Shown here: piece after piece, positions 9,842 through 38,580 of the stretch | How the letters are laid out: each line of letters opens with the position of its first letter | How positions within the stretch are numbered: the first letter of the stretch is position 1 | From: an uncultured archaeon | GTDB taxonomy: Archaea; Altiarchaeota; Altiarchaeia; IMC4; QMZM01 | DNA: 41,173 nt | Assembly (NCBI GenBank): GCA_964592095.1 | Contig: CAZQER010000002.1 | Span: forward strand, 1 to 41,173 | Reading direction: 5' to 3' | Program-made: the position numbers and the translations under genes | The notes under the pieces: model-generated | Database searches by the model: none | What the model saw: only the letters and a program-made list of their open reading frames with translations | What the model was told of the DNA's origin: nothing

Positions 9842-10303
9842 CTATATAAACCTCACAAGTTGAATAATATCCTCTCCCTTCTTTGTGTAGTTTCTGAAAT
9901 AACCTTCCTTTTCAAATCCATTACTTAGGAAGAATTTTAACCCCTCCTTATTTACAGCCTTAACCTTTGCAATTACTCTCCTAATACCTAACTTCTTTAG
10001 AAAAATAATTGCATTATTCAGCAAAATTGTTCCTATTCCCACATTTCTGAATTTCTTCCTTACACATATTGGTCCAATTTCACCCCTACCTACATTGCTA
10101 TAAAACAAAATGCCAACAAAACCAACTATTGTATCATTTACTTCAGCCACGAGGAATTTAAAATCAAATCTCTGAGAAATATTTATAATAAAATCCTTAT
10201 TGATGCCTATATCCTCAAAATTTTCAGCAGATTCATTATGCAATTTAAGTATATATTCAACATCTGAAGGCACAAATTCTCTAATAGAAATTTTTTCATT
10301 CAT
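9842..10303 (-). CDS. GNAT family N-acetyltransferase
   Basis: 153 aa. It has the acetyl-CoA binding motif A (VRKKFRNVGIGTILL) and the typical GNAT beta-strand layout. Confidence 0.8.
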   Translation of the reverse strand: MNEKISIREFVPSDVEYILKLHNESAENFEDIGINKDFIINISQRFDFKFLVAEVNDTIVGFVGILFYSNVGRGEIGPICVRKKFRNVGIGTILLNNAIIFLKKLGIRRVIAKVKAVNKEGLKFFLSNGFEKEGYFRNYTKKGEDIIQLVRFI

Positions 10304-10337
10304 AATCTATAATATTGTATGAAATGAAAAAATCAAA

Positions 10338-11558
10338 ATGAAATACATTGTTGTGGTTGGAGATGGTATGGCAGATTATCCCATAAATGAACTTGATGGT
10401 AGAACTCCCTTGGAGGTTGCAGAAAAACCAAATATGGATTTTATTGCAGAAGAAGGGAGGTGTGGTTTACTAAGGACGCTTAAAAAGGGGATGTCCCTAG
10501 GAAGTGATATTGCAAATCTCAGAATTCTTGGCTATGATACAGAGAAATATTACACGGGTGGTAGAGGACCATTAGAAGCCGCAAGCATTGGTATATCTCT
10601 TGGAAGGTATGATATTGCCTTCAGATGTAATCTTATCACAGTAGAGGATGGAAGGATTAAAGATCATAGTGCAGGTCATATATCAAGCAATGAAGGGGGG
10701 GAACTGATAGAGTATATAAATAAAAAATTTGGCACAGATAATATAAAATTTTACCCGGGTGTGAGTTATAGAAACATTCTTGTTCTTAAGGGAAAAGGAT
10801 TCTCAGATAAGATTAAATGTGTGCCTCCGCATGATATAATAAATCAAGAGATTTCAAAAAATTTAGTAAAACCCACAGAAAGTGAAGGAAGAAAAACAGC
10901 AGAATTACTTAATAAGATAATTTTAGAATCTAAGAATATCCTTGAAAATCATAATATAAATATAAAAAGAAGGGAGAAAGGAAAGTTGATGGCAAATTCC
11001 ATCTGGTTTTGGGGTCATGGTAGGAGGTTGGAAATGCCATCATTTATGGAAAGATATGGGATTAAAGGAGCCATGATTTCAGCGGTGGATCTACTTAGGG
11101 GTATAGGTGTATATCTCGGAATGGATGTGATTGATGTGCCTAATATTACCGGATATTTAGATACGAATTATGAAGGGAAGGCGGATTTTGCAATAAAAGC
11201 TCTGGAAAGAAATGATTTGGTTTATGTTCATTTAGAGGCAACAGATGAGGCATCACATGAGGGCAGTATTGAAAAGAAAATAAAGGCTATAGAGGACTTA
11301 GATAAGAGATTGCTGGGTAGAATTATAAAGGGAATTTCCAAAGATATGGAATATACTTTAGCTGTTCTTACCGATCATGCTACTCCAATAAAATTAAGAA
11401 CACATACTCATGATTTGGTTCCATTTGCCATATACAACCCCAAAAATGAGGGTGATAAGGTAAAGAGATTTACAGAGAATGAAACTAAAAAAGGCTTTTA
11501 TGGAAAAAGGGATGCACTTGAATTTATGAATCTTTTGTTATATAATAAATCTAAATAA
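10338..11558 (+). CDS. apgM: 2,3-bisphosphoglycerate-independent phosphoglycerate mutase, archaeal type
   Basis: 406 aa. The N-terminal VVGDGMADYP metal-site motif, the later HLEATDEASHEG and LTDHATP motifs, and the overall length all fit archaeal ApgM. Confidence 0.85.
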   Translation: MKYIVVVGDGMADYPINELDGRTPLEVAEKPNMDFIAEEGRCGLLRTLKKGMSLGSDIANLRILGYDTEKYYTGGRGPLEAASIGISLGRYDIAFRCNLITVEDGRIKDHSAGHISSNEGGELIEYINKKFGTDNIKFYPGVSYRNILVLKGKGFSDKIKCVPPHDIINQEISKNLVKPTESEGRKTAELLNKIILESKNILENHNINIKRREKGKLMANSIWFWGHGRRLEMPSFMERYGIKGAMISAVDLLRGIGVYLGMDVIDVPNITGYLDTNYEGKADFAIKALERNDLVYVHLEATDEASHEGSIEKKIKAIEDLDKRLLGRIIKGISKDMEYTLAVLTDHATPIKLRTHTHDLVPFAIYNPKNEGDKVKRFTENETKKGFYGKRDALEFMNLLLYNKSK

Positions 11559-11568
11559 ATTTTAAAAT

Positions 11569-11832
11569 ATGGATGAGGATAAAAAAATATTGGTGGAATT
11601 TTATATAAGGGAGGGGGAATATTCACCTGTATGTCGTTTTGAATTTCCTCATCAGAGTTTCATTTATTCAATCTTGGAGTCAACACCTGTAAATGAACAG
11701 AAAAAATACAAATTTTATTTCTTCAACAACATATTGGTTTCAAATAATTACTCAAAAGATGTTTTGAAATTTCTTAAGAACGGTGCCAAAAAGGCGGGAT
11801 TTGAGATAGAATTCGTAGAGAAAAAACGGTAG
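11569..11832 (+). CDS. hypothetical small protein (87 aa)
   Basis: ORF packed tightly between apgM and the acylphosphatase gene on the same strand. No motif recognised. Confidence 0.4.
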   Translation: MDEDKKILVEFYIREGEYSPVCRFEFPHQSFIYSILESTPVNEQKKYKFYFFNNILVSNNYSKDVLKFLKNGAKKAGFEIEFVEKKR

Positions 11833-12123
11833 GTGATGAAAATGCATTCTGAGATAGAGGCTCATGTTTTTATTTCGGGAATCGTACAGGGTGTTTTCTT
11901 TAGAGCGAATACTATGGAGATGGCAAGAGAACTGAAACTCTCGGGTTGGGTAAAAAATCTCCCTGATGGGAGAGTAGAGGCAATTTTTCAGGGAGATGAA
12001 AACAAAGTAAAAAAGATGATAGAATGGTGTCATAAAGGACCAAGATTTGCAAGGGTTTCAAAGGTAGATGTGGAGATAAGGGGGATTAAAGATAAATTGC
12101 AAGGATTTGAGATTAGATACTGA
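11833..12123 (+). CDS. acyP: acylphosphatase
   Basis: VFISGIVQGVFFR is the acylphosphatase signature and the ~90-aa size fits. GGTGAT immediately precedes the gene. The true start is probably ATG at 11836 or 11842. Confidence 0.85.
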   Translation: MMKMHSEIEAHVFISGIVQGVFFRANTMEMARELKLSGWVKNLPDGRVEAIFQGDENKVKKMIEWCHKGPRFARVSKVDVEIRGIKDKLQGFEIRY

Positions 12124-12125
12124 AA

Positions 12126-12785
12126 ATGAAAAAACTTTTTATACCGGCATATTCCTTAAAGAGTCCAGAAAGGGCTGTAAAAAGGGCATTAAGGCTTCTA
12201 AAAGGTTATAAAACTATAGGTATCATTACCACTGCCCAACATATAAATCAGATATCTATGGTAAAAAGAATTCTTGAGAGAGAAGGGCACAATGTTATTG
12301 AGGGTGGGCAGATACTTGGTTGTAATATAGAATCTGCCAAAAAAATTGAAAATAGTGTGGATGTATTTCTATATATCGGCTCCGGGAGATTTCATCCCTT
12401 GGGTGTTGCATATGCAACAAGAAAGCCAGTAATTACGGCAAACCCCCTCTCTGATTTTGCAGATACAATATCAAAGGAGGAGATACTACAGTTAAAAAGG
12501 AAAAGAAGGGCTAGAATCCTCAGGGCATATAATGCCAATGTTTTTGGAATACTTGTCTCACTAAAGAATGGACAATTTAACTTAGAGAGAGCATTTCAGA
12601 TTAAGGATAGAATGGAAAGAGCAGGTAGGAGAGCATTTATCTTTGCTGGCTCTGAAATAAACAATGATAATATACTTCCATTTAGAGTAGAGGCTTGGGT
12701 TAATACCGCGTGTCCAAGGATAGTGGATGATTACTTTGATAAACCTGTTTTGAATGAAGGAGAGATTGATATACTGATAGAGTAA
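12126..12785 (+). CDS. dph2: Dph2 (2-(3-amino-3-carboxypropyl)histidine synthase) lacking the N-terminal domain
   Basis: The 219 aa align by eye to domains 2 and 3 of archaeal Dph2. Matching segments are IGIITTAQHINQ, GQILGCN, YIGSGRFHPLG, FGILVSLKNGQ and WVNTACPRIVDDY. There is no room upstream for domain 1, because the acyP stop lies 2 nt before the ATG. Confidence 0.75.
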   Translation: MKKLFIPAYSLKSPERAVKRALRLLKGYKTIGIITTAQHINQISMVKRILEREGHNVIEGGQILGCNIESAKKIENSVDVFLYIGSGRFHPLGVAYATRKPVITANPLSDFADTISKEEILQLKRKRRARILRAYNANVFGILVSLKNGQFNLERAFQIKDRMERAGRRAFIFAGSEINNDNILPFRVEAWVNTACPRIVDDYFDKPVLNEGEIDILIE

Positions 12786-12809
12786 AATTTTATAATTATT
12801 TGTGATCTA

Positions 12810-13583
12810 TCACTTGAATAGATTTAACATTTCTTCCTCTGTAAAGTGGAGATTTGCAGGTATGATTATGGAGTGTGGCGGCCCACCAAAATTAAAATCT
12901 ATTAAATCATTTAGAGTTCCAGTCTTTATCGTGGTATCATTTCCTAGTCTTGCAACGCCAACAATAAGTGTTTCATTATCAATAACATTTTCCCTTTTTA
13001 TTTTTTCCATTTTCAAAAGAATTTCAATACCTTCATTGATTGTCATAAATCTCTTTTCTTCATATTTTATATCTAAAAGAATTAATGTATGCATTCCTCC
13101 TCTCAGATTTTCCTTTATCACATTATATGGAGATGTTGGAAAATATTTCTTTTCTGGAAATGGTAGGGTGGTTGTTTTGCCAAACTTGTATATGTGCAAA
13201 CCGGTTTCAGCAATGGCAGAATACACAGATGATGAGTGTATTACCTTGACCTTTATACCCATTTTATTTGCTCTCAATAGAATATCTGCGTGGGTGGTTG
13301 CAATTAGAGGGTCGCCACAAACAAGTAATGCGACATCTTTTTTTGAAGAATTATAAAGGATATTATCATCCGGATGCCCCTCTAAATCCTCCCTGTCTAA
13401 AATGTTAATCCTTTTTCCAACCCAGTTTTCAATAGTCTTCAAATCACCATTAAAAAAACTTGTATATAATTCGGCATAAATTCTATCAACCCTCTTTAGT
13501 ATCTCAACACCCTTAATACTAATATCCCCTTCATCATAAATGCCCAACCCAATGAGATATAACATATTAATAATTAGAAACAC
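12810..13583 (-). CDS. dphB: diphthine synthase
   Basis: 257 aa. The tetrapyrrole-methylase-fold N-terminus MLYLIGLGIYDEGDISIKG, plus LVCGDPLIATTH and the overall length, are typical of archaeal diphthine synthase. It is convergent with dph2. Confidence 0.9.
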   Translation of the reverse strand: MFLIINMLYLIGLGIYDEGDISIKGVEILKRVDRIYAELYTSFFNGDLKTIENWVGKRINILDREDLEGHPDDNILYNSSKKDVALLVCGDPLIATTHADILLRANKMGIKVKVIHSSSVYSAIAETGLHIYKFGKTTTLPFPEKKYFPTSPYNVIKENLRGGMHTLILLDIKYEEKRFMTINEGIEILLKMEKIKRENVIDNETLIVGVARLGNDTTIKTGTLNDLIDFNFGGPPHSIIIPANLHFTEEEMLNLFK

Positions 13584-13641
13584 TGATTTTAATCCAATTG
13601 ATTAAAAAATAAAGAAAAAGAAAAAATAAGAAAAAGAAGAT

Positions 13642-17930: not shown

Positions 17931-19025
17931 TTATTCTACTTTAAATCTCAAAATTGCTGCCTTTCCACCGAATGTATTCCATAATTGAAATCCTTCCTCA
18001 AAGTCATCAGAAACTATATCTACCTCTGTATTTGTATCCTTAGCCTTCTGATAGAGTTTGTCTATCGTTTCATCATCAAGATTTTCAGATATCAATAATA
18101 TATCAACTGCACCCATATCCAATGCCTTATCAACATCATCACCATATGCAACACTCTCCTGAGATGAGACGAGACCCTTAAGAAATCTCTGCATATGTGT
18201 TTTGTGTCTTACCATCTGCACATTACTTAAAACATCCTTTGATTTATCTATCAATTCCCTGATGCCAGATTCATCTGTGTATGTAATATCCTGAACTGCA
18301 ATAATCTTCTTTTTCAACTCATGATTAAGATAATTACCCTCAACAAAATCATCCTTTGTCCCTGCAGGTCCTCCTATTATTATACCCTTTAAATCCTTGA
18401 AATTTTCCAGAAATATTTTATTAGAATGTTCACCCACTCTAACCTTAAATTCATGGGATTGCTCTCTAATCAATCTCTCAAATCTTCTATGAGACTGACC
18501 TCCAGCCCTATGCTTTCCAGTATATCCTGATGTAAGGTGTTTTAGTATAGTGTATCTGTTACCCTTCAATGTAGCAATTGTAGCCTCTTTATTATCTATT
18601 GCTATTAAACCATATACATCCTTTGGTTTTATTATCTCCTCCAATGGCTCTATTACAAACTCTTGGTCACATCTGTAGATTCTCACAGATATGGGTTCAG
18701 GGGGTTCAATTGACCATAATCTCAAATCCTGAACTCCTTCCTTCTCAGAAACATTTCCACAAAAAACAACGAGACCATTATCGGGTGTTTTTTTGAAAAG
18801 CCTTAAATGTTGTATTGTCTTCTCCAATGCATCTAATACATTCTTTCTTGTGGACTTGGATTTGATATTAGCTGCAGTTCCCTGTTCATCTACAAGTTGA
18901 TTAAGAACGTTGTTTATGTCATAACCTGCAGGTATATATATAGATATAAGCTCCGTGTGTCTTCCCTTTCTCCTCTTTAATTCATTTACAAGTCTCCTCA
19001 ACCTGTATTCATCCTTTGCTTCCAT
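17931..19025 (-). CDS. prf1: peptide chain release factor aRF1
   Basis: It has the NIKS codon-recognition motif (AANIKSKS) and the GGQ motif (HRAGGQSHRRFERL). The N-terminal YRLRRLVNEL...ELISIYIP is typical of aRF1. At 364 aa it is somewhat short for the family. Confidence 0.9.
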   Translation of the reverse strand: MEAKDEYRLRRLVNELKRRKGRHTELISIYIPAGYDINNVLNQLVDEQGTAANIKSKSTRKNVLDALEKTIQHLRLFKKTPDNGLVVFCGNVSEKEGVQDLRLWSIEPPEPISVRIYRCDQEFVIEPLEEIIKPKDVYGLIAIDNKEATIATLKGNRYTILKHLTSGYTGKHRAGGQSHRRFERLIREQSHEFKVRVGEHSNKIFLENFKDLKGIIIGGPAGTKDDFVEGNYLNHELKKKIIAVQDITYTDESGIRELIDKSKDVLSNVQMVRHKTHMQRFLKGLVSSQESVAYGDDVDKALDMGAVDILLISENLDDETIDKLYQKAKDTNTEVDIVSDDFEEGFQLWNTFGGKAAILRFKVE

Positions 19026-19860
19026 ATTTTATTTTTATAAATATTCTATCCAGATTAAACTCAAATGCAGTAATGGGTACTTCTAATCCAAAATTTTCTA
19101 TTACTATTGGATTTATTTCTCCAAAAAAACCAAAGCCTGTTCCAGCACACCTACCATCAATAAAGCTCCCATGTTCTAATTCTTTTATTTTATATTTTAC
19201 CCCGATATTATCAAGAAATCCAGTAACTATAGATTTTATTTCTGCATAGTTTGTTTTTGAATGAGCAATAGCAGCAGCTAATTTCATACTTTCATTTCCA
19301 TTTTGGTCTATGCAAAGTCCAGTCTCGAATATTCTTTGCGGATACTCCCTGTTCTTGTTATTTTCAAATACTGACATAAGAGATGGTAATAACCATGACC
19401 TTGCAACCGAATGTCTCAGAGATACTGGATTCTTTGTCTTTACCACATTCTCTCTTGATATATTCATTCTATCAAAAAGTTCATCCTCATTGGTCATAAT
19501 CAGGGTCATCACCTCCTGAAAATTAAAGCCAAGCATTAACTCCCTTACAGCTGAGTAAAATTTCTCAGATTTATCTTTTTCACCTATTGTGGACAGTTCT
19601 GGTATTTCTGGATTGAAATTATTATAGTTGTAAGCTATAGCCACATCCTCAACCAGATCTATGGGATGTAAGATGTCTGTTCTGTAGGCTGGGATTAAAA
19701 TCTCAAATTTATTATTATTTAATATTTTAACACCGAAACGCATCTTCTCCAATAATTTTTTGATATCTTTTAGTCCCAAATTTAAACCCAAGAGTTTATT
19801 TACATACCTTAAATCCAATTTCATCAATTTTGGTGAAAGATTGGGAGTTGTTGTTTCCAT
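19009..19860 (-). CDS. pheT: phenylalanyl-tRNA synthetase beta subunit, C-terminal half (B5 plus catalytic-like core)
   Basis: The 283 aa start at the B5 domain (LDLRYVNKLLGLNLGLKDIKKLLEKMRFG...ILIPAYRTDILHPIDLVEDVAIAYNYNNF). They continue through the class-II-like core to the normal C-terminus (EINPIVIENFGLEVPITAFEFNL). The B1-B3/4 region is absent here and is encoded at 34728-35522. Confidence 0.85.
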   Translation of the reverse strand: METTTPNLSPKLMKLDLRYVNKLLGLNLGLKDIKKLLEKMRFGVKILNNNKFEILIPAYRTDILHPIDLVEDVAIAYNYNNFNPEIPELSTIGEKDKSEKFYSAVRELMLGFNFQEVMTLIMTNEDELFDRMNISRENVVKTKNPVSLRHSVARSWLLPSLMSVFENNKNREYPQRIFETGLCIDQNGNESMKLAAAIAHSKTNYAEIKSIVTGFLDNIGVKYKIKELEHGSFIDGRCAGTGFGFFGEINPIVIENFGLEVPITAFEFNLDRIFIKIKYGSKG

Positions 19861-19946: not shown

Positions 19947-20660
19947 TCAATTATATTTTTCAATTTTATATACGATAACATCATTTGTTCTTGTATATAT
20001 TGAGTAATTGATCCTATCTGCTATTTCATCAATGGTATCTCCAAATATGACAAGATAATCAAAACCCTCTTGGATTTTGTTATTATTCAAATAACAAGAT
20101 ATATTTTGAATCTCACATGCTATACATTCTCCATTTTTTGATAATCCGTAATATGCATAGATTAGAAAGGGATACATAATAATTAGGAACAAGTTGGCCA
20201 AGCAAACAACCATACAGTTGTAATAATCAATATACCAAGATATTGTGAATGTCTCACATATTTATAAACACCATCTGTTACCAATTCACCATTTGAATAG
20301 TAAATCTTTTCCCATCCAGAAACAATTATAATCCGTGAAAATATTGTGAGTATGGCTGCTATCAGAGATGTCATTAAGAGATTATATGAACGACCTGTAA
20401 GGGAGAATGTAAATGCTATTGATGGTTCATTATATGTAGATGGAATATACAAAATGATGATAACAGATATATTGATAATGGAATGCCAAACATCTCGGTG
20501 AATAGTGCAACTATAAATGCTATGTAGATACTATGGGTTTTCTTCCATGAATACCCTTTGATTGGGTGAACCATCAAGAATATTATAAAAATTGAAAATA
20601 GGATTATATAGAAAAGAACAAGACTCCATTGATGTTTTATGATACTCTTAGTTGATTTTT
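19947..20660 (-). pseudogene. frameshifted PEMT/ICMT-like membrane methyltransferase
   Basis: Family-typical segments lie in three different frames. The first is ...ALFTEMFGIPLSIYLLSS (stop at 20418-20416). The second is ...ELVTDGVYKYVRHSQYLGILIITTVWLFAWPT (ORF 20183-20452). The third is LFLIIMYPFLIYAYYGLSK... (ORF 19947-20213). No ATG is visible at the expected N-terminus. Confidence 0.6.
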
Positions 20661-34727: not shown

Positions 34728-35522
34728 TTATCTTTTAAGCAGTTTTATGCTTTGTATTTCACCTCCTCTGTCAGCTATGGAAGTAACAATGATGTTCAAT
34801 GCCTGATTAACTGCAACATTATCAAGACCAGTCACATCTATGAAGATATCCTCTGTGTCCTCACCTACTCTGGTAAGTTCTCCATTTATTATTGGTGGAA
34901 ATGACAAAACCCTGTTGTATTTATCAACTATTATTGGATATCTTTTCAATCCTGATAGAGTCCATTTATATTGAATTCCCTTTGGATGTCTCTCAAGAAT
35001 CTCTCTTAGATTTAATTCCTCTTTCATATCCAGTGGAACAAATCTTATATCATCTGGTTTTATGGCTTTGTATGTGAACGGTCCTTCTATTTTTTTCATA
35101 TCATGTATGCCTATAGCAACCTTCTTCCTGTTTCTTCCATGAGTAATATGAAGCTTTTCTTGAAGATTCATTAACGAAACCAATCTTTTTTCATTTAGTG
35201 AAAGATTTCTAATTACGGCACCAACTATATAAGGTCTAACATTATTGACAGATTCTTCTATGAGAATTTTAATTCCAGAATCAGTAATATTATATTCCTT
35301 GAATCCAGTCTCAATCTCAAGAAAGCCTTTCAATGCCCTTACAAATCCCTCCACTGAAAGCAGGTCTGGTCTGTTTGGGAATACCTCCATAACCAATCTC
35401 TCATTATCAATATCCTCTAAATCCACACCAAGCATTGATATCTTTTCTTCTATGTCATCTATTTTGTATTTATTTCCCAACAAATGATTAATCTCTCTAA
35501 GATCAAACTCAACCGTAGGCAT
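34728..35522 (-). CDS. pheT: phenylalanyl-tRNA synthetase beta subunit, N-terminal half (B1 plus B3/4 editing region) as a stand-alone gene
   Basis: MPTVEFDLREINHLLG...EVFPNRPDLLSVEGFVRALKGFLEIETG is the typical archaeal PheT N-terminus. The B3/4-like region is VRPYIVGAVIRN...KVAIGIHD...LSFPPIINGELT...IFIDVTG...ADRGGEI. A stop follows residue 264, where B5 would begin. The gene starts 16 nt after the radA stop. Confidence 0.85.
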   Translation of the reverse strand: MPTVEFDLREINHLLGNKYKIDDIEEKISMLGVDLEDIDNERLVMEVFPNRPDLLSVEGFVRALKGFLEIETGFKEYNITDSGIKILIEESVNNVRPYIVGAVIRNLSLNEKRLVSLMNLQEKLHITHGRNRKKVAIGIHDMKKIEGPFTYKAIKPDDIRFVPLDMKEELNLREILERHPKGIQYKWTLSGLKRYPIIVDKYNRVLSFPPIINGELTRVGEDTEDIFIDVTGLDNVAVNQALNIIVTSIADRGGEIQSIKLLKR

Positions 35523-35538
35523 TCTATCTTTATAATTT

Positions 35539-36468
35539 CTAATCCATAACCCCCCTTCCCGTTATCTTGAATACACACTCCCCCTCTGGAAGATTTGGGG
35601 AATCTATTAATTTGGCAATTCTCCGTTCCCCTTTACCCTTTCTGAGATATATTCTAAATGTTGCAGTATGTCCCACCACATGTCCACCAATGGGTTCGGT
35701 TGGATCGCCAAATAGAATATCGGGTCTTGCCATTACCTGATTTGTTACAACAACTGCAATATTATGGAGATCCGATATCTTTCGCTGCAGTAAATGAAGG
35801 AATCTGTTCAATTTTTGTTGCCTCTCAGCCAAACTTCCTCTTCCCGTGTATTCTGCTCTAAAGTGAGATGTTAGAGAATCAACAACCAATAATTTTGTAT
35901 TGTATTCCTCGGCAATTTCAGATGCCTTTTCTGCAAGAAGAATCTGGTGGTCTGAATTGTATGCCCTTGCTACCTGAATATTTTTTAATGCTTCATCACC
36001 ATCAATACCCTTTCCCTCGGCCATCTGTATTATCCTCTCGGGTCTGAATGTATTTTCTGTATCAATATATATTGCAGTTCCGTTCAACCCACCTCTCTTC
36101 ACTGGTAATTGAACATTTACTGAAAGTTGATGAGCAATTTGTGTTTTTCCAGAACCAAACTTTCCAAAGAGTTCTGTTATAGCCTGTGTTTCAATACCAC
36201 CCCCAAGAAGCGCATCCAATTCCTTACTACCCGTACTAAGTTTCCCAACTGCCTCCCTCCTCCTCTTGACATCCAAACCACTCTCAAAACCCATATCAAT
36301 ATTCTCCTGTGCATTATTGATTAATTTTATCGCTACTGCCTCTCCAAGCCCAACATCCTTTAATTGACCTATCGATGCCGTTGCAATTGATTCCACTGTG
36401 GAGAATCCAGCCTCTCTGAGTTTTTCTGCAACCTTTGTTCCTACGCCTGGTAAGTCTTCTATATTCAT
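35539..36468 (-). CDS. radA: DNA repair and recombination protein RadA
   Basis: It has an N-terminal HhH ([20 protein letters not shown]), Walker [10 protein letters not shown], Walker [13 protein letters not shown] and the C-terminal [18 protein letters not shown]. At 309 aa there is no intein. Confidence 0.92.
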
Positions 36469-36572
36469 TTTTATTAAATAATATTTGAGACATTACTTAA
36501 TTATTGGATTTAATTAGATTATTCTATTAGATTATTTAGATATTCGTAATTAAAAGAGAAATAGAAATTGAA

Positions 36573-38492
36573 TTACTCAGAATTCCTCCTTACTTTCTCC
36601 ATTCTCTCTATTACTTCATCACCCTCAATTAGTGAATATCTCAATACATCAACAAGATTGTCCGCAGTTATTATCTCTATCTTACCTTCATATTTCTTTT
36701 CTAAAAGGACGTCGTTTTTATTTGCCTTTGGGATGATTACCCTCTTCAGTCCTGCATCTATTGCAGCCTCTATCTTTTGAGTAACCCCACCAATGGGAAG
36801 AACCTCACCTCTGACTGTGAGAGAACCAGTCATTGCCACGCTCTGATCAACCTTAATATTCTTAAATGCAGAAATCATAGCCACAGCCACACTTACAGAT
36901 GCAGAATCACCCTCAACACCCTCATATGTCTGTAAAAATTGAACAAAGATATCATATTTCTCTTTGATATCCTCACCATACATCTTCATTATCACGGCAG
37001 AGACATTTTTAATTGCCTCCTTTGCTATATCGCCAAGTTTTCCCGTTGCAATAATCTCTGATTTCTTTCCACCAGGTGTCACTTCTGCCTCTATAGGTAG
37101 AACCGTTCCTCCTTCTCCAAGAACAGCCAGTCCATTAACCCTGCCTATTAAACCACCCTTTGTAATTAATATGTTGTATTCTCTCTTTCTATCCAAATAT
37201 ATATTACCTATCTGCTGTTCTAATGTCTTTGCAGATTTCTTCCCCTCTAAAACATCATCAGCAGTTACATATTTATGACCCTTCTCCTTTGCAATATCTC
37301 CAGATGCCCTTATAATTCCGCCAAGTTCTCTGAATCTTAGTGTTATTTTATTCTTCATGCCCGCTCTCCTCCTTGCCTCCCTGATTATCTCACCCACTGC
37401 ATCCCTAGTAAAGTGGGGTATTTTACCATCTTTTTCAACCTCCTGAGCAACAAACTGTACCAGTTTTTTCCTGTTCTCTTCAGTATCATCCATTATATCA
37501 TTCATATATATCTCATAACCATATCCCCTTATTCTTGACCTCAAAGCAGGATGCATATGTTGTATATCATTTATATTTCCAGAGGCAACAAGAATAAAAT
37601 CTGCAGGTACTGGATCAGTCATAACCATAGCCCCTGAACTCATCTCACTTCTACCAGTAATTGCCAGTTGTTTTTCTTGCATGGCAGTAAGTAAATCCTG
37701 CTGTGACCTACCTAATGTCGCTACTTCATCAATAAATAGAACACCCTTATTTGCCTTATGTATTAATCCAGAAACCACTCTTAAATGAGCAGGAGTTCCC
37801 AAACCACCACTCTGCAACGGGTCATGTTTTACATCTCCTAAAAGGGCACCTGCATGGGCACCAGTTCCATCATAGAATGGTGCCTTCTTTCTTGTTGTAT
37901 TATCAACAATCATCTTTGGTATATTATTTCCTGTATTGGATGCCATCATGAATCTGAAATTTAATCCAGATAAAAGGAAAAGAAGGAAACTCAATCCCAT
38001 GATTCCCAATGCAATCATCTGTAAGTCTGGTCTTATTAATGCAAAAACAAGTGCAGATAGAAAGATTAGAAATGGTAGAAAGAATTGATTCATATTCGGT
38101 CTTCTCGTAGCACCCAATCTCTCTCTTTCTCTCTTTATGATCTTAATACCCTCTCCTGCAGGCACAGTCTTTATCTTCGGGTTGTTTTCATCCTCGGGGT
38201 TTGGATATACCAGAATATCCACAAGCTCTTCACATGGTAACAATTCCGCCATTGCCATGGCAAGCATAGATTTCCCAGTACCTGGCTCACCAATCAGTAA
38301 TATATTTCTCCTCTGTTTTGCAGCCTTTTTTATTATATCAACTGCCTTATCCTGACCTATGACCTGATCTATGAGTCTCTTAGGAACCTTTATCTGATCA
38401 GTAGTTTTGAAATCACTCCAGGATTTCATCTTCATAATGTCTATCTTGCCCTTGCTATTTCTTGTTTTATTTACCTTATTTACTTGTTTCAT
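36573..38492 (-). CDS. lonB: archaeal membrane-bound Lon protease (LonB)
   Basis: Walker A is GEPGTGKS. Two TM helices are inserted in the AAA module (FFLPFLIFLSALVFALI, IALGIMGLSFLLFLLSGL). The protease domain has Ser in EGDSASVS and Lys in GGVTQKIEAA. Confidence 0.92.
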   Translation of the reverse strand: MKQVNKVNKTRNSKGKIDIMKMKSWSDFKTTDQIKVPKRLIDQVIGQDKAVDIIKKAAKQRRNILLIGEPGTGKSMLAMAMAELLPCEELVDILVYPNPEDENNPKIKTVPAGEGIKIIKRERERLGATRRPNMNQFFLPFLIFLSALVFALIRPDLQMIALGIMGLSFLLFLLSGLNFRFMMASNTGNNIPKMIVDNTTRKKAPFYDGTGAHAGALLGDVKHDPLQSGGLGTPAHLRVVSGLIHKANKGVLFIDEVATLGRSQQDLLTAMQEKQLAITGRSEMSSGAMVMTDPVPADFILVASGNINDIQHMHPALRSRIRGYGYEIYMNDIMDDTEENRKKLVQFVAQEVEKDGKIPHFTRDAVGEIIREARRRAGMKNKITLRFRELGGIIRASGDIAKEKGHKYVTADDVLEGKKSAKTLEQQIGNIYLDRKREYNILITKGGLIGRVNGLAVLGEGGTVLPIEAEVTPGGKKSEIIATGKLGDIAKEAIKNVSAVIMKMYGEDIKEKYDIFVQFLQTYEGVEGDSASVSVAVAMISAFKNIKVDQSVAMTGSLTVRGEVLPIGGVTQKIEAAIDAGLKRVIIPKANKNDVLLEKKYEGKIEIITADNLVDVLRYSLIEGDEVIERMEKVRRNSE

Positions 38493-38580
38493 TGTAAACT
38501 CAGAACGACCAGTTTCATTTATTAGAAATAGTTAAAATTATTCTAACAATATATTCTACGATATTAGATTTAAATATACT

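What the first reader, a model, noticed from the sequence alone, without database searches (positions are those of the whole stretch)
12126..12785. Dph2 lacks its whole N-terminal domain, including one of the three Fe-S cysteines
- Archaeal Dph2 is about 330-340 aa with three domains. In the P. horikoshii enzyme each domain donates one Cys (Cys59, Cys163, Cys287) to the radical-SAM-like [4Fe-4S] cluster.
- This ORF is 219 aa and starts at the equivalent of domain 2.
- The domain 2 Cys (GQILGCN) and the domain 3 Cys (NTACPR) are present. Domain 1 is absent.
- Domain 1 cannot be hidden upstream, because the acyP stop is 2 nt before the ATG.
- Three explanations are possible. Domain 1 may be encoded elsewhere as another split gene. 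The enzyme may work with two Cys ligands. The diphthamide pathway may be decaying, although dphB next door looks intact.
- The unassigned 87-aa ORF at 11569-11832 in the same gene string is a positional candidate partner. It shows no domain 1 motif that I can recognise.
Basis: partly seen in the sequence, partly recalled or inferred. Interest (0 to 1): 0.65.

Follow-up and report, generated by a model that had tools for sequence, protein, structure and literature searches.

The report
C-terminal half of split dph2
This gene is the C-terminal two-thirds of the diphthamide enzyme Dph2; the missing first domain, with the third iron-sulfur cysteine, is made from a separate small gene elsewhere in the same genome, which is a split-gene arrangement already reported for this group of archaea.

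Summary
ORF 12126-12785 (219 aa) is a Dph2 that starts at domain 2. It carries two of the three cluster cysteines (Cys66, Cys196), and it cannot extend upstream.

It is not a decaying gene and not a two-cysteine enzyme. The short form is conserved across the Altiarchaeota and several DPANN lineages.

A separate 86-aa gene for domain 1 was found on a 2-kb contig (L119:418-678). That contig comes from the same metagenome sample that holds this exact protein.
- The 86-aa protein carries the missing cysteine (DPTYGACD).
- It aligns to Dph2 residues 7-86, and the window protein aligns from residue 94.
- Joined, the two halves score 256 bits against the archaeal Dph2 model (cutoff 202.8) in one stretch. 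The window half alone scores 180.

The L119 contig tracks the window across public runs. The nine runs that hold most of each are the same. Contig depth in eight runs correlates at r = 0.97, with a ratio near 1.

The 87-aa ORF at 11569-11832 is not the partner.

Split Dph1/2 in DPANN, including Altiarchaeota, was published by Narrowe et al. 2018 and Dombrowski et al. 2019. The one small addition here is that the domain-1 gene usually sits directly after aIF5B.

The parts
12126..12785 (+). dph2C: the C-terminal part (domains 2 and 3, 219 aa) of a split 2-(3-amino-3-carboxypropyl)histidine synthase. It carries Cys66 and Cys196, equivalent to PhDph2 Cys163 and Cys287.
   Evidence: PF01866 at 160 bits, profile positions 66-292 of 302. 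TIGR03682 at 180 bits, profile positions 74-296 of 308. Aligns to 6bxm residues 94-311. AF2 and Foldseek give TMq 0.87 to Dph2 structures. Both Cys are invariant in 40 orthologues.
12810..13583 (-). dph5 (diphthine synthase), the next enzyme of the pathway. It is convergent with dph2C.
   Evidence: TIGR00522 at 302.9 bits (cutoff 114.3), profile positions 1-253 of 258. The same pairing is seen on six other contigs of this species.
11833..12123 (+). Acylphosphatase gene that closes the reading frame 2 nt upstream of dph2C. It is a boundary feature, not part of the enzyme.
   Evidence: PF00708 at 95 bits, full length. Sequence read directly.
11569..11832 (+). 87-aa ORF of unknown function. It was tested as the candidate domain-1 partner and rejected. 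It is listed only to mark it as not belonging.
   Evidence: No Pfam or NCBIfam hit. No domain-1 HMM hit. hhalign probability 0.2% against the NTD profile. No tblastn match in 82 related loci. It is called at the same position on contigs of this species only.

Best explanation
ORF 12126-12785 is dph2C, the C-terminal two-domain half of a Dph2 that is encoded by two separate genes.

The N-terminal half (dph2N, about 86 aa, domain 1) lies at another locus of the same genome. The best candidate is L119:418-678 (JGI contig Ga0190363_1036214). There it overlaps the stop codon of the aIF5B gene and is followed by a beta-CASP RNase gene.

dph2N supplies the first cluster cysteine (Cys63 in DPTYGACD, equivalent to PhDph2 Cys59-Asp60). 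dph2C supplies the other two (Cys66 and Cys196, equivalent to Cys163 and Cys287).

Inferred mechanism:
1. The two polypeptides associate non-covalently at the natural domain 1 / domain 2 boundary.
2. This rebuilds the three-domain protomer around one [4Fe-4S] cluster.
3. The protomer dimerises like ordinary archaeal Dph2.
4. The enzyme cleaves SAM to transfer the 3-amino-3-carboxypropyl group to the target histidine of EF-2.
5. The neighbouring dph5 then carries out the following step.

Shown here: the two complementary ORFs, their conservation, and their co-abundance. Inferred: physical assembly, cluster binding and activity.
For: **1. Complementarity.**
- dph2N aligns to 6q2d residues 7-86 and 6bxm residues 7-84, with the GACD cysteine conserved.
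- dph2C aligns from residue 94.
- Concatenated, they match TIGR03682 in one stretch over profile positions 1-296 of 308 at 256.2 bits (cutoff 202.8). The halves alone score 180.2 and 68.9.

**2. Same organism.**
- L119 comes from JGI sample 3300021472, which also holds a contig encoding the identical 219-aa protein.
- The nine runs that hold most of L119 (X1-X9) are the same nine that hold most of two separate window regions.
- Run occupancy correlates at r = 0.95. The window-versus-window control gives 0.94. A control domain-1 contig from the same sample (L132) gives 0.20.
- Logan contig depth in eight runs correlates at r = 0.97, with a ratio near 1.

**3. Lineage-wide conservation of both halves.**
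- The 120 best hits to dph2C are 189-273 aa long (all but one under 236 aa). The named ones are Altiarchaeota.
- All 38 or so Altiarchaeota genome loci have a stop codon 0-43 codons upstream of the match to the short protein.
- 31 stand-alone 83-98-aa dph2N ORFs share about 61% mean identity.
- One stand-alone domain-1 protein, found by the separate all-protein search, is annotated by NCBI as Candidatus Altarchaeaceae.

**4. Precedent.**
- Stand-alone domain-1 genes next to or near short C-terminal genes occur in Pacearchaeota, Woesearchaeota, Huberarchaeum and others.
- Narrowe et al. 2018 (PMC6143161) report the NTD/CTD split in DPANN.
- Dombrowski et al. 2019 (PMC6349945) list Altiarchaeota among the lineages.

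**5. A second split gene in this window.** PheRS-beta is also split here.
Against: - dph2N and dph2C were not seen on one contig. The link rests on co-occurrence and matching depth in metagenomes, not on physical linkage.
- No experiment shows that split halves assemble or are active in any organism.
- EF-2 of this organism is not in the window, so the target histidine was not checked.
- A second, full-length dph2 elsewhere in the genome cannot be excluded with the scans available.
Confidence: 0.88

Rival explanations
1. The gene is split, but L119 is not this organism's domain-1 gene. It would belong to a co-occurring close relative, and the true partner would lie on another contig not recovered here.
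For: The link is statistical only. Hydrothermal samples hold several Altiarchaeota, and a second domain-1 contig (L132) is in the same sample. L119 has GC 36.6% against 34.5% for the window.
Against: Run occupancy (r = 0.95) and depth (r = 0.97, ratio near 1 in eight runs) are as good as the window-versus-window control. The other domain-1 contig from the same sample behaves differently (r = 0.20). In run X8, many of the contig pieces laid on both loci are only 95-99% alike, unlike in most other runs.
Confidence: 0.06
2. dph2C works alone as a two-domain Dph2. It would bind its cluster with two cysteines per chain, with further ligands from the dimer partner or from non-Cys residues.
For: The ORF is conserved and has only two Cys. 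Many Altiarchaeota orthologues carry an extra Cys at position 8 (IPCYS).
Against: The position-8 Cys is Ala in this protein and its closest relatives, so it is not required. A conserved stand-alone domain-1 gene with the canonical Cys-Asp motif exists in the same lineage and co-varies with this genome. That conservation would be unexplained if domain 1 were dispensable.
Confidence: 0.04
3. The ORF is a truncated remnant of a decaying diphthamide pathway.
For: It scores below the TIGR03682 equivalog cutoff. Some archaea have lost the dph genes (Narrowe 2018).
Against: - The identical 219-aa protein is on at least 8 contigs from different samples.
- More than 120 clusters of the same length are conserved down to 39% identity, with invariant GC, GSGxFH and NTACPR motifs.
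- The AF2 model is confident.
- dph5 is intact.
Confidence: 0.02

Closest known systems
Split Dph1/2 (NTD gene plus CTD gene) of DPANN archaea, reported by Narrowe et al. 2018 (Genome Biol Evol 10:2380, PMC6143161). Dombrowski et al. 2019 (PMC6349945) list Parv-, Pace-, Woese- and Altiarchaeota.
   Same: The break point is the same, at the domain 1 / domain 2 boundary. There is an N-terminal protein of about 80-100 aa with the GACD cysteine and a C-terminal protein of about 210-230 aa with the other two cysteines. This window is an Altiarchaeota instance of exactly that arrangement.
   Different: In several Pace-, Woese- and Huberarchaeal loci the two halves abut or lie within a few kb (L049, L047, L083). 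In the Altiarchaeota loci examined they are never within 10 kb of each other. The Altiarchaeota-type N-terminal protein keeps the DPTYGACD motif of full-length enzymes rather than the W-G-S-x-F-G-A-C-D-x-P motif of Woese/Pace proteins. It usually follows aIF5B.
Full-length archaeal Dph2 homodimer (P. horikoshii 3LZD, Ca. Methanoperedens 6BXM, M. smithii 6Q2D)
   Same: The fold of domains 2 and 3 is the same (TMq 0.85-0.88). Sequence identity is 35-39%. The two cysteines are conserved. The concatenated halves cover the family model end to end. The three cluster ligands Cys59/163/287 are as cited in PMC11048331.
   Different: The chain is broken after the HxGH motif of domain 1, so the cluster would have to be held between two polypeptides.
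Eukaryotic Dph1-Dph2 heterodimer
   Same: Same family (PF01866), same reaction, and an enzyme built from more than one gene product.
   Different: The eukaryotic subunits are two full-length paralogues, each with three domains. Here one protomer is cut into two pieces. TIGR00272 (eukaryotic DPH2) scores only 16.9 bits.

Membership tests
Archaeal Dph2 (TIGR03682 / arCOG04112, 2-(3-amino-3-carboxypropyl)histidine synthase) | End-to-end match to the family model above the curated cutoff (202.8 bits) | tested here: met
   The window ORF alone fails, at 180.2 bits over profile positions 74-296. With the separately encoded 86-aa N-terminal protein appended, the match is 256.2 bits in one stretch over profile positions 1-296 of 308. 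The feature is met by the two-gene enzyme, not by this ORF alone.
Archaeal Dph2 (TIGR03682 / arCOG04112, 2-(3-amino-3-carboxypropyl)histidine synthase) | Three cluster cysteines, one from each of three domains (PhDph2 Cys59, Cys163, Cys287) | tested here: met
   Cys66 and Cys196 of the window ORF align to the domain 2 and domain 3 cysteines. Cys63 of L119:418-678 aligns to the GACD cysteine of 6q2d and 6bxm. The ligand list comes from PMC11048331.
Archaeal Dph2 (TIGR03682 / arCOG04112, 2-(3-amino-3-carboxypropyl)histidine synthase) | Three similar alpha/beta domains arranged around the cluster | tested here: inconclusive
   Domains 2 and 3 were modelled with pLDDT 88.8 and superpose on Dph2 structures at 2.0-2.3 A rmsd.
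Archaeal Dph2 (TIGR03682 / arCOG04112, 2-(3-amino-3-carboxypropyl)histidine synthase) | [4Fe-4S] binding, SAM cleavage to the ACP radical, modification of the EF-2 histidine | not testable with these tools
   Biochemical property. EF-2 is not in the window.
Split Dph1/2 of DPANN/Altiarchaeota (Narrowe et al. 2018) | Two separate, non-overlapping ORFs that together cover the NTD and the CTD | tested here: met
   The N-terminal protein aligns to 6q2d residues 7-86 and the C-terminal protein to residues 94-317. A stop codon lies 0-43 codons upstream of the match in all 38 or so Altiarchaeota loci.
Split Dph1/2 of DPANN/Altiarchaeota (Narrowe et al. 2018) | Both halves present in the same genome | tested here: met
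   They were not seen on one contig. They occur in the same JGI sample. The nine runs that hold most of each are identical, occupancy correlates at r = 0.95, and depth correlates at r = 0.97 over eight runs. A control contig gives 0.20. This is strong but indirect evidence.
Split Dph1/2 of DPANN/Altiarchaeota (Narrowe et al. 2018) | Both halves under purifying selection across the lineage | tested here: met
   The C-terminal proteins have mean identity 49% with 14 invariant columns. The N-terminal proteins have mean identity 61% over 31 loci, with the motif intact.

The most novel reading that the evidence does not exclude
In Altiarchaeota the domain-1 gene has been moved to sit directly behind aIF5B, usually with overlapping or abutting stop and start codons. 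Under this reading, supply of the cysteine-bearing domain 1 would be coupled to expression of a translation initiation factor. It would act as a limiting, regulatory subunit that switches EF-2 diphthamide modification on or off, rather than being a neutral by-product of genome fragmentation.
Probability: 0.1. Interest if true: 0.45.

Novelty: already known. Interest (0 to 1): 0.15.

Why it matters
For annotation, a 219-aa Dph2 in Altiarchaeota or DPANN genomes should not be called a pseudogene or taken as a sign that diphthamide is lost. Dph2 should also not be used as a single-copy completeness marker there, as Narrowe et al. already warned.

For enzymology, a naturally split Dph2 whose Fe-S cluster must be held between two polypeptides is a convenient system. 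It could be used to ask how much each domain contributes to cluster binding and SAM regiochemistry. This opportunity comes from the published phenomenon, not from this window in particular.

Tried and rejected
- **Domain 1 inside the window.** tblastn with domain-1 fragments of 6q2d and 6bxm and a domain-1 HMM over all six-frame ORFs found nothing.
- **Domain 1 within 10 kb of the C-terminal gene in Altiarchaeota.** None in about 38 genome loci.
- **The 87-aa ORF as partner.** Rejected.
- **Profile searches with Woese/Pace N-terminal proteins**.
- **P0354 (contigs up to 965 kb) as an Altiarchaeota candidate.** Unresolved and probably another DPANN lineage.
- **Naming representatives through cluster look-ups.** Mostly empty. 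The third look-up gave the decisive Altarchaeaceae name.
- **Crude taxonomic assignment of the metagenome domain-1 contigs** by best BLAST hit against held loci. Inconclusive.
- **aIF5B next to full-length dph2 or next to Woese/Pace C-terminal genes.** Not found, so the ancestral position cannot be inferred.
- **Identity comparison to decide whether the Altiarchaeota and Woese/Pace splits share one origin.** Inconclusive: 41% against 38.5% for the N-terminal part, and 40% against 37% for the C-terminal part.
- A structure model of the fused halves and an exact-protein look-up of the L119 N-terminal protein.

Full report
**The observation**

The ORF at 12126-12785 (+) starts with ATG and encodes 219 aa. 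The acylphosphatase gene (11833-12123, PF00708) ends with TGA two bases before that ATG, so nothing can be added upstream in frame.

- Pfam PF01866 matches residues 4-218 to profile positions 66-292 of 302.
- The archaeal Dph2 equivalog TIGR03682 matches profile positions 74-296 of 308 at 180.2 bits, under its 202.8-bit cutoff.
- Against solved structures the protein aligns to residues 94-311 of Ca. Methanoperedens Dph2 (6bxm), 94-317 of M. smithii Dph2 (6q2d) and the equivalent part of P. horikoshii Dph2.
- An AlphaFold2 model built on 40 orthologues is confident (pLDDT 88.8).
- The model superposes on all Dph2 structures with TM 0.85-0.88 relative to the query, but only 0.56-0.62 relative to the target. 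It therefore corresponds to domains 2 and 3 only.
- The protein has two cysteines, Cys66 (GQILGCN) and Cys196 (NTACPR).

dph5 next door is intact (TIGR00522, 303 bits).

**Not a one-off**

- A search of about 5.8 billion proteins returned 1460 hits. The best 120 are 189-273 aa long, and all but one are under 236 aa. Identity goes down to 39%, and the named ones are Candidatus Altiarchaeota or Altiarchaeales.
- In an alignment of 40 of them, both cysteines, GSGxFH and NTACPR are invariant.
- A scan of one genome per species returned 80 loci.
  - In all 38 or so Altiarchaeota loci the frame is closed by a stop codon 0-43 codons upstream of the match, in most cases fewer than ten.
  - The same holds in Woese-, Pace-, Nano-, Parv- and Huberarchaeal loci.
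  - Aenigmatarchaeota, Thermoplasmata and others have full-length genes of 285-327 aa.
- The identical 219-aa protein, with the same neighbours, sits on at least eight contigs from different samples.

Decay is therefore excluded.

**The literature already explains it**

Narrowe et al. [quoted passage not shown] Dombrowski et al. 2019 (PMC6349945) list Parvarchaeota, Pacearchaeota, Woesearchaeota and Altiarchaeota. The supplement with accession numbers is not held, so I looked for the partner gene myself.

**Finding the partner**

1. Aligning full-length relatives showed that the window protein begins exactly after the HxGH motif that ends domain 1.
2. A domain-1 HMM found no match in the window or within 10 kb of the C-terminal gene in any Altiarchaeota locus. 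It did find stand-alone 79-94-aa domain-1 ORFs near the short gene in two Pacearchaeota, one Woesearchaeota and Huberarchaeum. In Huberarchaeum the two ORFs abut.
3. Such stand-alone proteins are very numerous.
4. One representative from the all-protein search, P0322 (90 aa), is annotated by NCBI as a diphthamide synthesis protein of a Candidatus Altarchaeaceae MAG.
5. With P0322 and the similar P0319 as query, a scan of JGI metagenomes returned 47 loci. Of these, 31 carry stand-alone 83-98-aa ORFs with the motif VGLQFPEGLK...DPTYGACD...HFGHT.
6. One of them, L119 (Ga0190363_1036214, 2078 bp, GC 36.6%), comes from sample 3300021472. That sample also holds a contig encoding the window's exact protein.

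**Is L119 from the same organism?**

*Run occupancy.*

| Comparison | Runs shared | Occupancy correlation |
|---|---|---|
| L119 vs window 10300-13600 | 12 of 19; nine fullest runs identical (X1-X9) | 0.95 |
| L119 vs window 35500-38500 | 10 of 20; nine fullest runs identical (X1-X9) | 0.90 |
| Window region vs window region (positive control) | 10 of 19 | 0.94 |
| Window 10300-13600 vs L132, a domain-1 contig from the same sample (negative control) | 6 of 24 | 0.20 |

*Contig depth in the eight runs that were laid (X1-X6, X8, X9).*

| Run | L119 | Window |
|---|---|---|
| X1 | 5.2 | 6.8 |
| X2 | 7.3 | 7.4 |
| X3 | 5.1 | 4.3 |
| X4 | 14.4 | 11.6 |
| X5 | 14.3 | 10.8 |
| X6 | 2.9 | 3.4 |
| X8 | 4.4 | 4.8 |
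| X9 | 2.9 | 3.6 |

Depth correlates at r = 0.97. This is indirect evidence, but it is as good as the positive control.

**Complementarity**

- The 86-aa protein (L119:418-678) aligns to residues 7-86 of 6q2d and 7-84 of 6bxm. Its Cys63-Asp64 lies on the GACD motif that holds the first cluster ligand. The ligands Cys59/163/287 and the Cys-Asp motif are as cited in PMC11048331.
- The window protein takes over at residue 94.
- Concatenated, they match TIGR03682 in one stretch, profile positions 1-296 of 308, at 256.2 bits. The halves alone score 180.2 and 68.9 bits.

**Mechanism**

Shown: two complementary, conserved genes that co-vary in abundance.

Inferred: the two proteins assemble at the natural domain boundary so that one [4Fe-4S] cluster is held by Cys63 of the small protein and Cys66 and Cys196 of the large one. 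This protomer then dimerises and carries out the usual ACP transfer from SAM to the EF-2 histidine. Dph5, encoded next door, follows in the pathway.

**The 87-aa ORF**

The 87-aa ORF at 11569-11832 is not domain 1.
- It has no family hit and no domain-1 HMM hit.
- hhalign gives 0.2% probability.
- It has no relative in 82 related loci.
- It is called at the same place only on contigs of this species.

**Small additions**

- In 21 of the 31 stand-alone loci, including L119, the domain-1 gene directly follows aIF5B, often with overlapping stop and start codons.
- The low-GC Altarchaeaceae type instead lies near an RsmF-like methyltransferase.
- No C-terminal gene lies within 10 kb of any of these loci.
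- Identity comparisons do not settle whether the Altiarchaeota split and the Woese/Pace split share one origin.

**Limits**

- The two halves have not been seen on one contig.
- EF-2 was not examined.
- A full-length paralogue elsewhere in the genome is not formally excluded.

**Verdict**

The phenomenon is already published, so interest is low.

Noticed in passing
window 34728-35522 (-) and 19009-19860 (-): The phenylalanyl-tRNA synthetase beta chain is also split into two genes about 15 kb apart on the same strand. One gene is a 264-aa N-terminal half (B1 and B3_4 domains). The other is a 283-aa C-terminal half (B5 and the catalytic-like domain). Together they total about 547 aa, the usual archaeal PheT length (recalled, not checked here). 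The C-terminal half is called the same way on other contigs of this species.
   Followed up: partly
L119:33-678, L100:6028-8060, and 19 further loci among L103-L133: In most Altiarchaeota-type loci the domain-1 gene (dph2N) directly follows the translation initiation factor aIF5B gene, often with overlapping stop and start codons. This holds in 21 of 31 stand-alone loci. aIF5B is not next to full-length dph2 or next to the Woese/Pace short genes in the loci held.
   Followed up: partly
window 12147-12149 (residue 8 of the 219-aa protein): Most Altiarchaeota dph2C proteins have a Cys at position 8 (consensus LFIPCYS). This protein and its closest relatives have Ala (IPAYS). An extra, non-conserved cysteine near the split point may or may not approach the cluster.
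   Followed up: no
window 11569-11832 (+): An 87-aa ORF lies between apgM and acyP. It has no family hit and no relative in 82 related loci, but it is called at the same position on several contigs of this species. Its function is unknown.
   Followed up: partly
window 19947-20452 (-): Two overlapping small ORFs (88 and 89 aa) lie here. The upstream one has a weak isoprenylcysteine carboxyl methyltransferase (ICMT) hit. On another contig of the species the ICMT-like ORF is 130 aa (L096). This suggests a frameshift or strain variation in a small membrane methyltransferase gene.
   Followed up: no
L049:9717-10648, L083:823-1820, L047:4077-5497: In Huberarchaeum, an unnamed DPANN MAG (GCA_027043765.1) and a Pacearchaeote, the N- and C-terminal dph2 genes abut, overlap by a few bases, or lie about 450 bp apart. 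This contrasts with the dispersed arrangement in Altiarchaeota.
   Followed up: partly
L085:10001-10318 (P0354): A 105-aa stand-alone domain-1 gene lies on contigs of up to 965 kb from groundwater metagenomes. Within about 10 kb on either side are a 1438-aa PAS histidine kinase, response regulators and a bAvd-like gene. Its lineage was not resolved. Its sequence group is otherwise Pace/Nanoarchaeota.
   Followed up: partly
window 10300-13600 and L119, run X8: In run X8, many of the contig pieces laid on both loci are only 95-99% alike (7 of 8 for L119, 4 of 9 for the window), unlike in most other runs. This suggests a second strain of the same species there.
   Followed up: no
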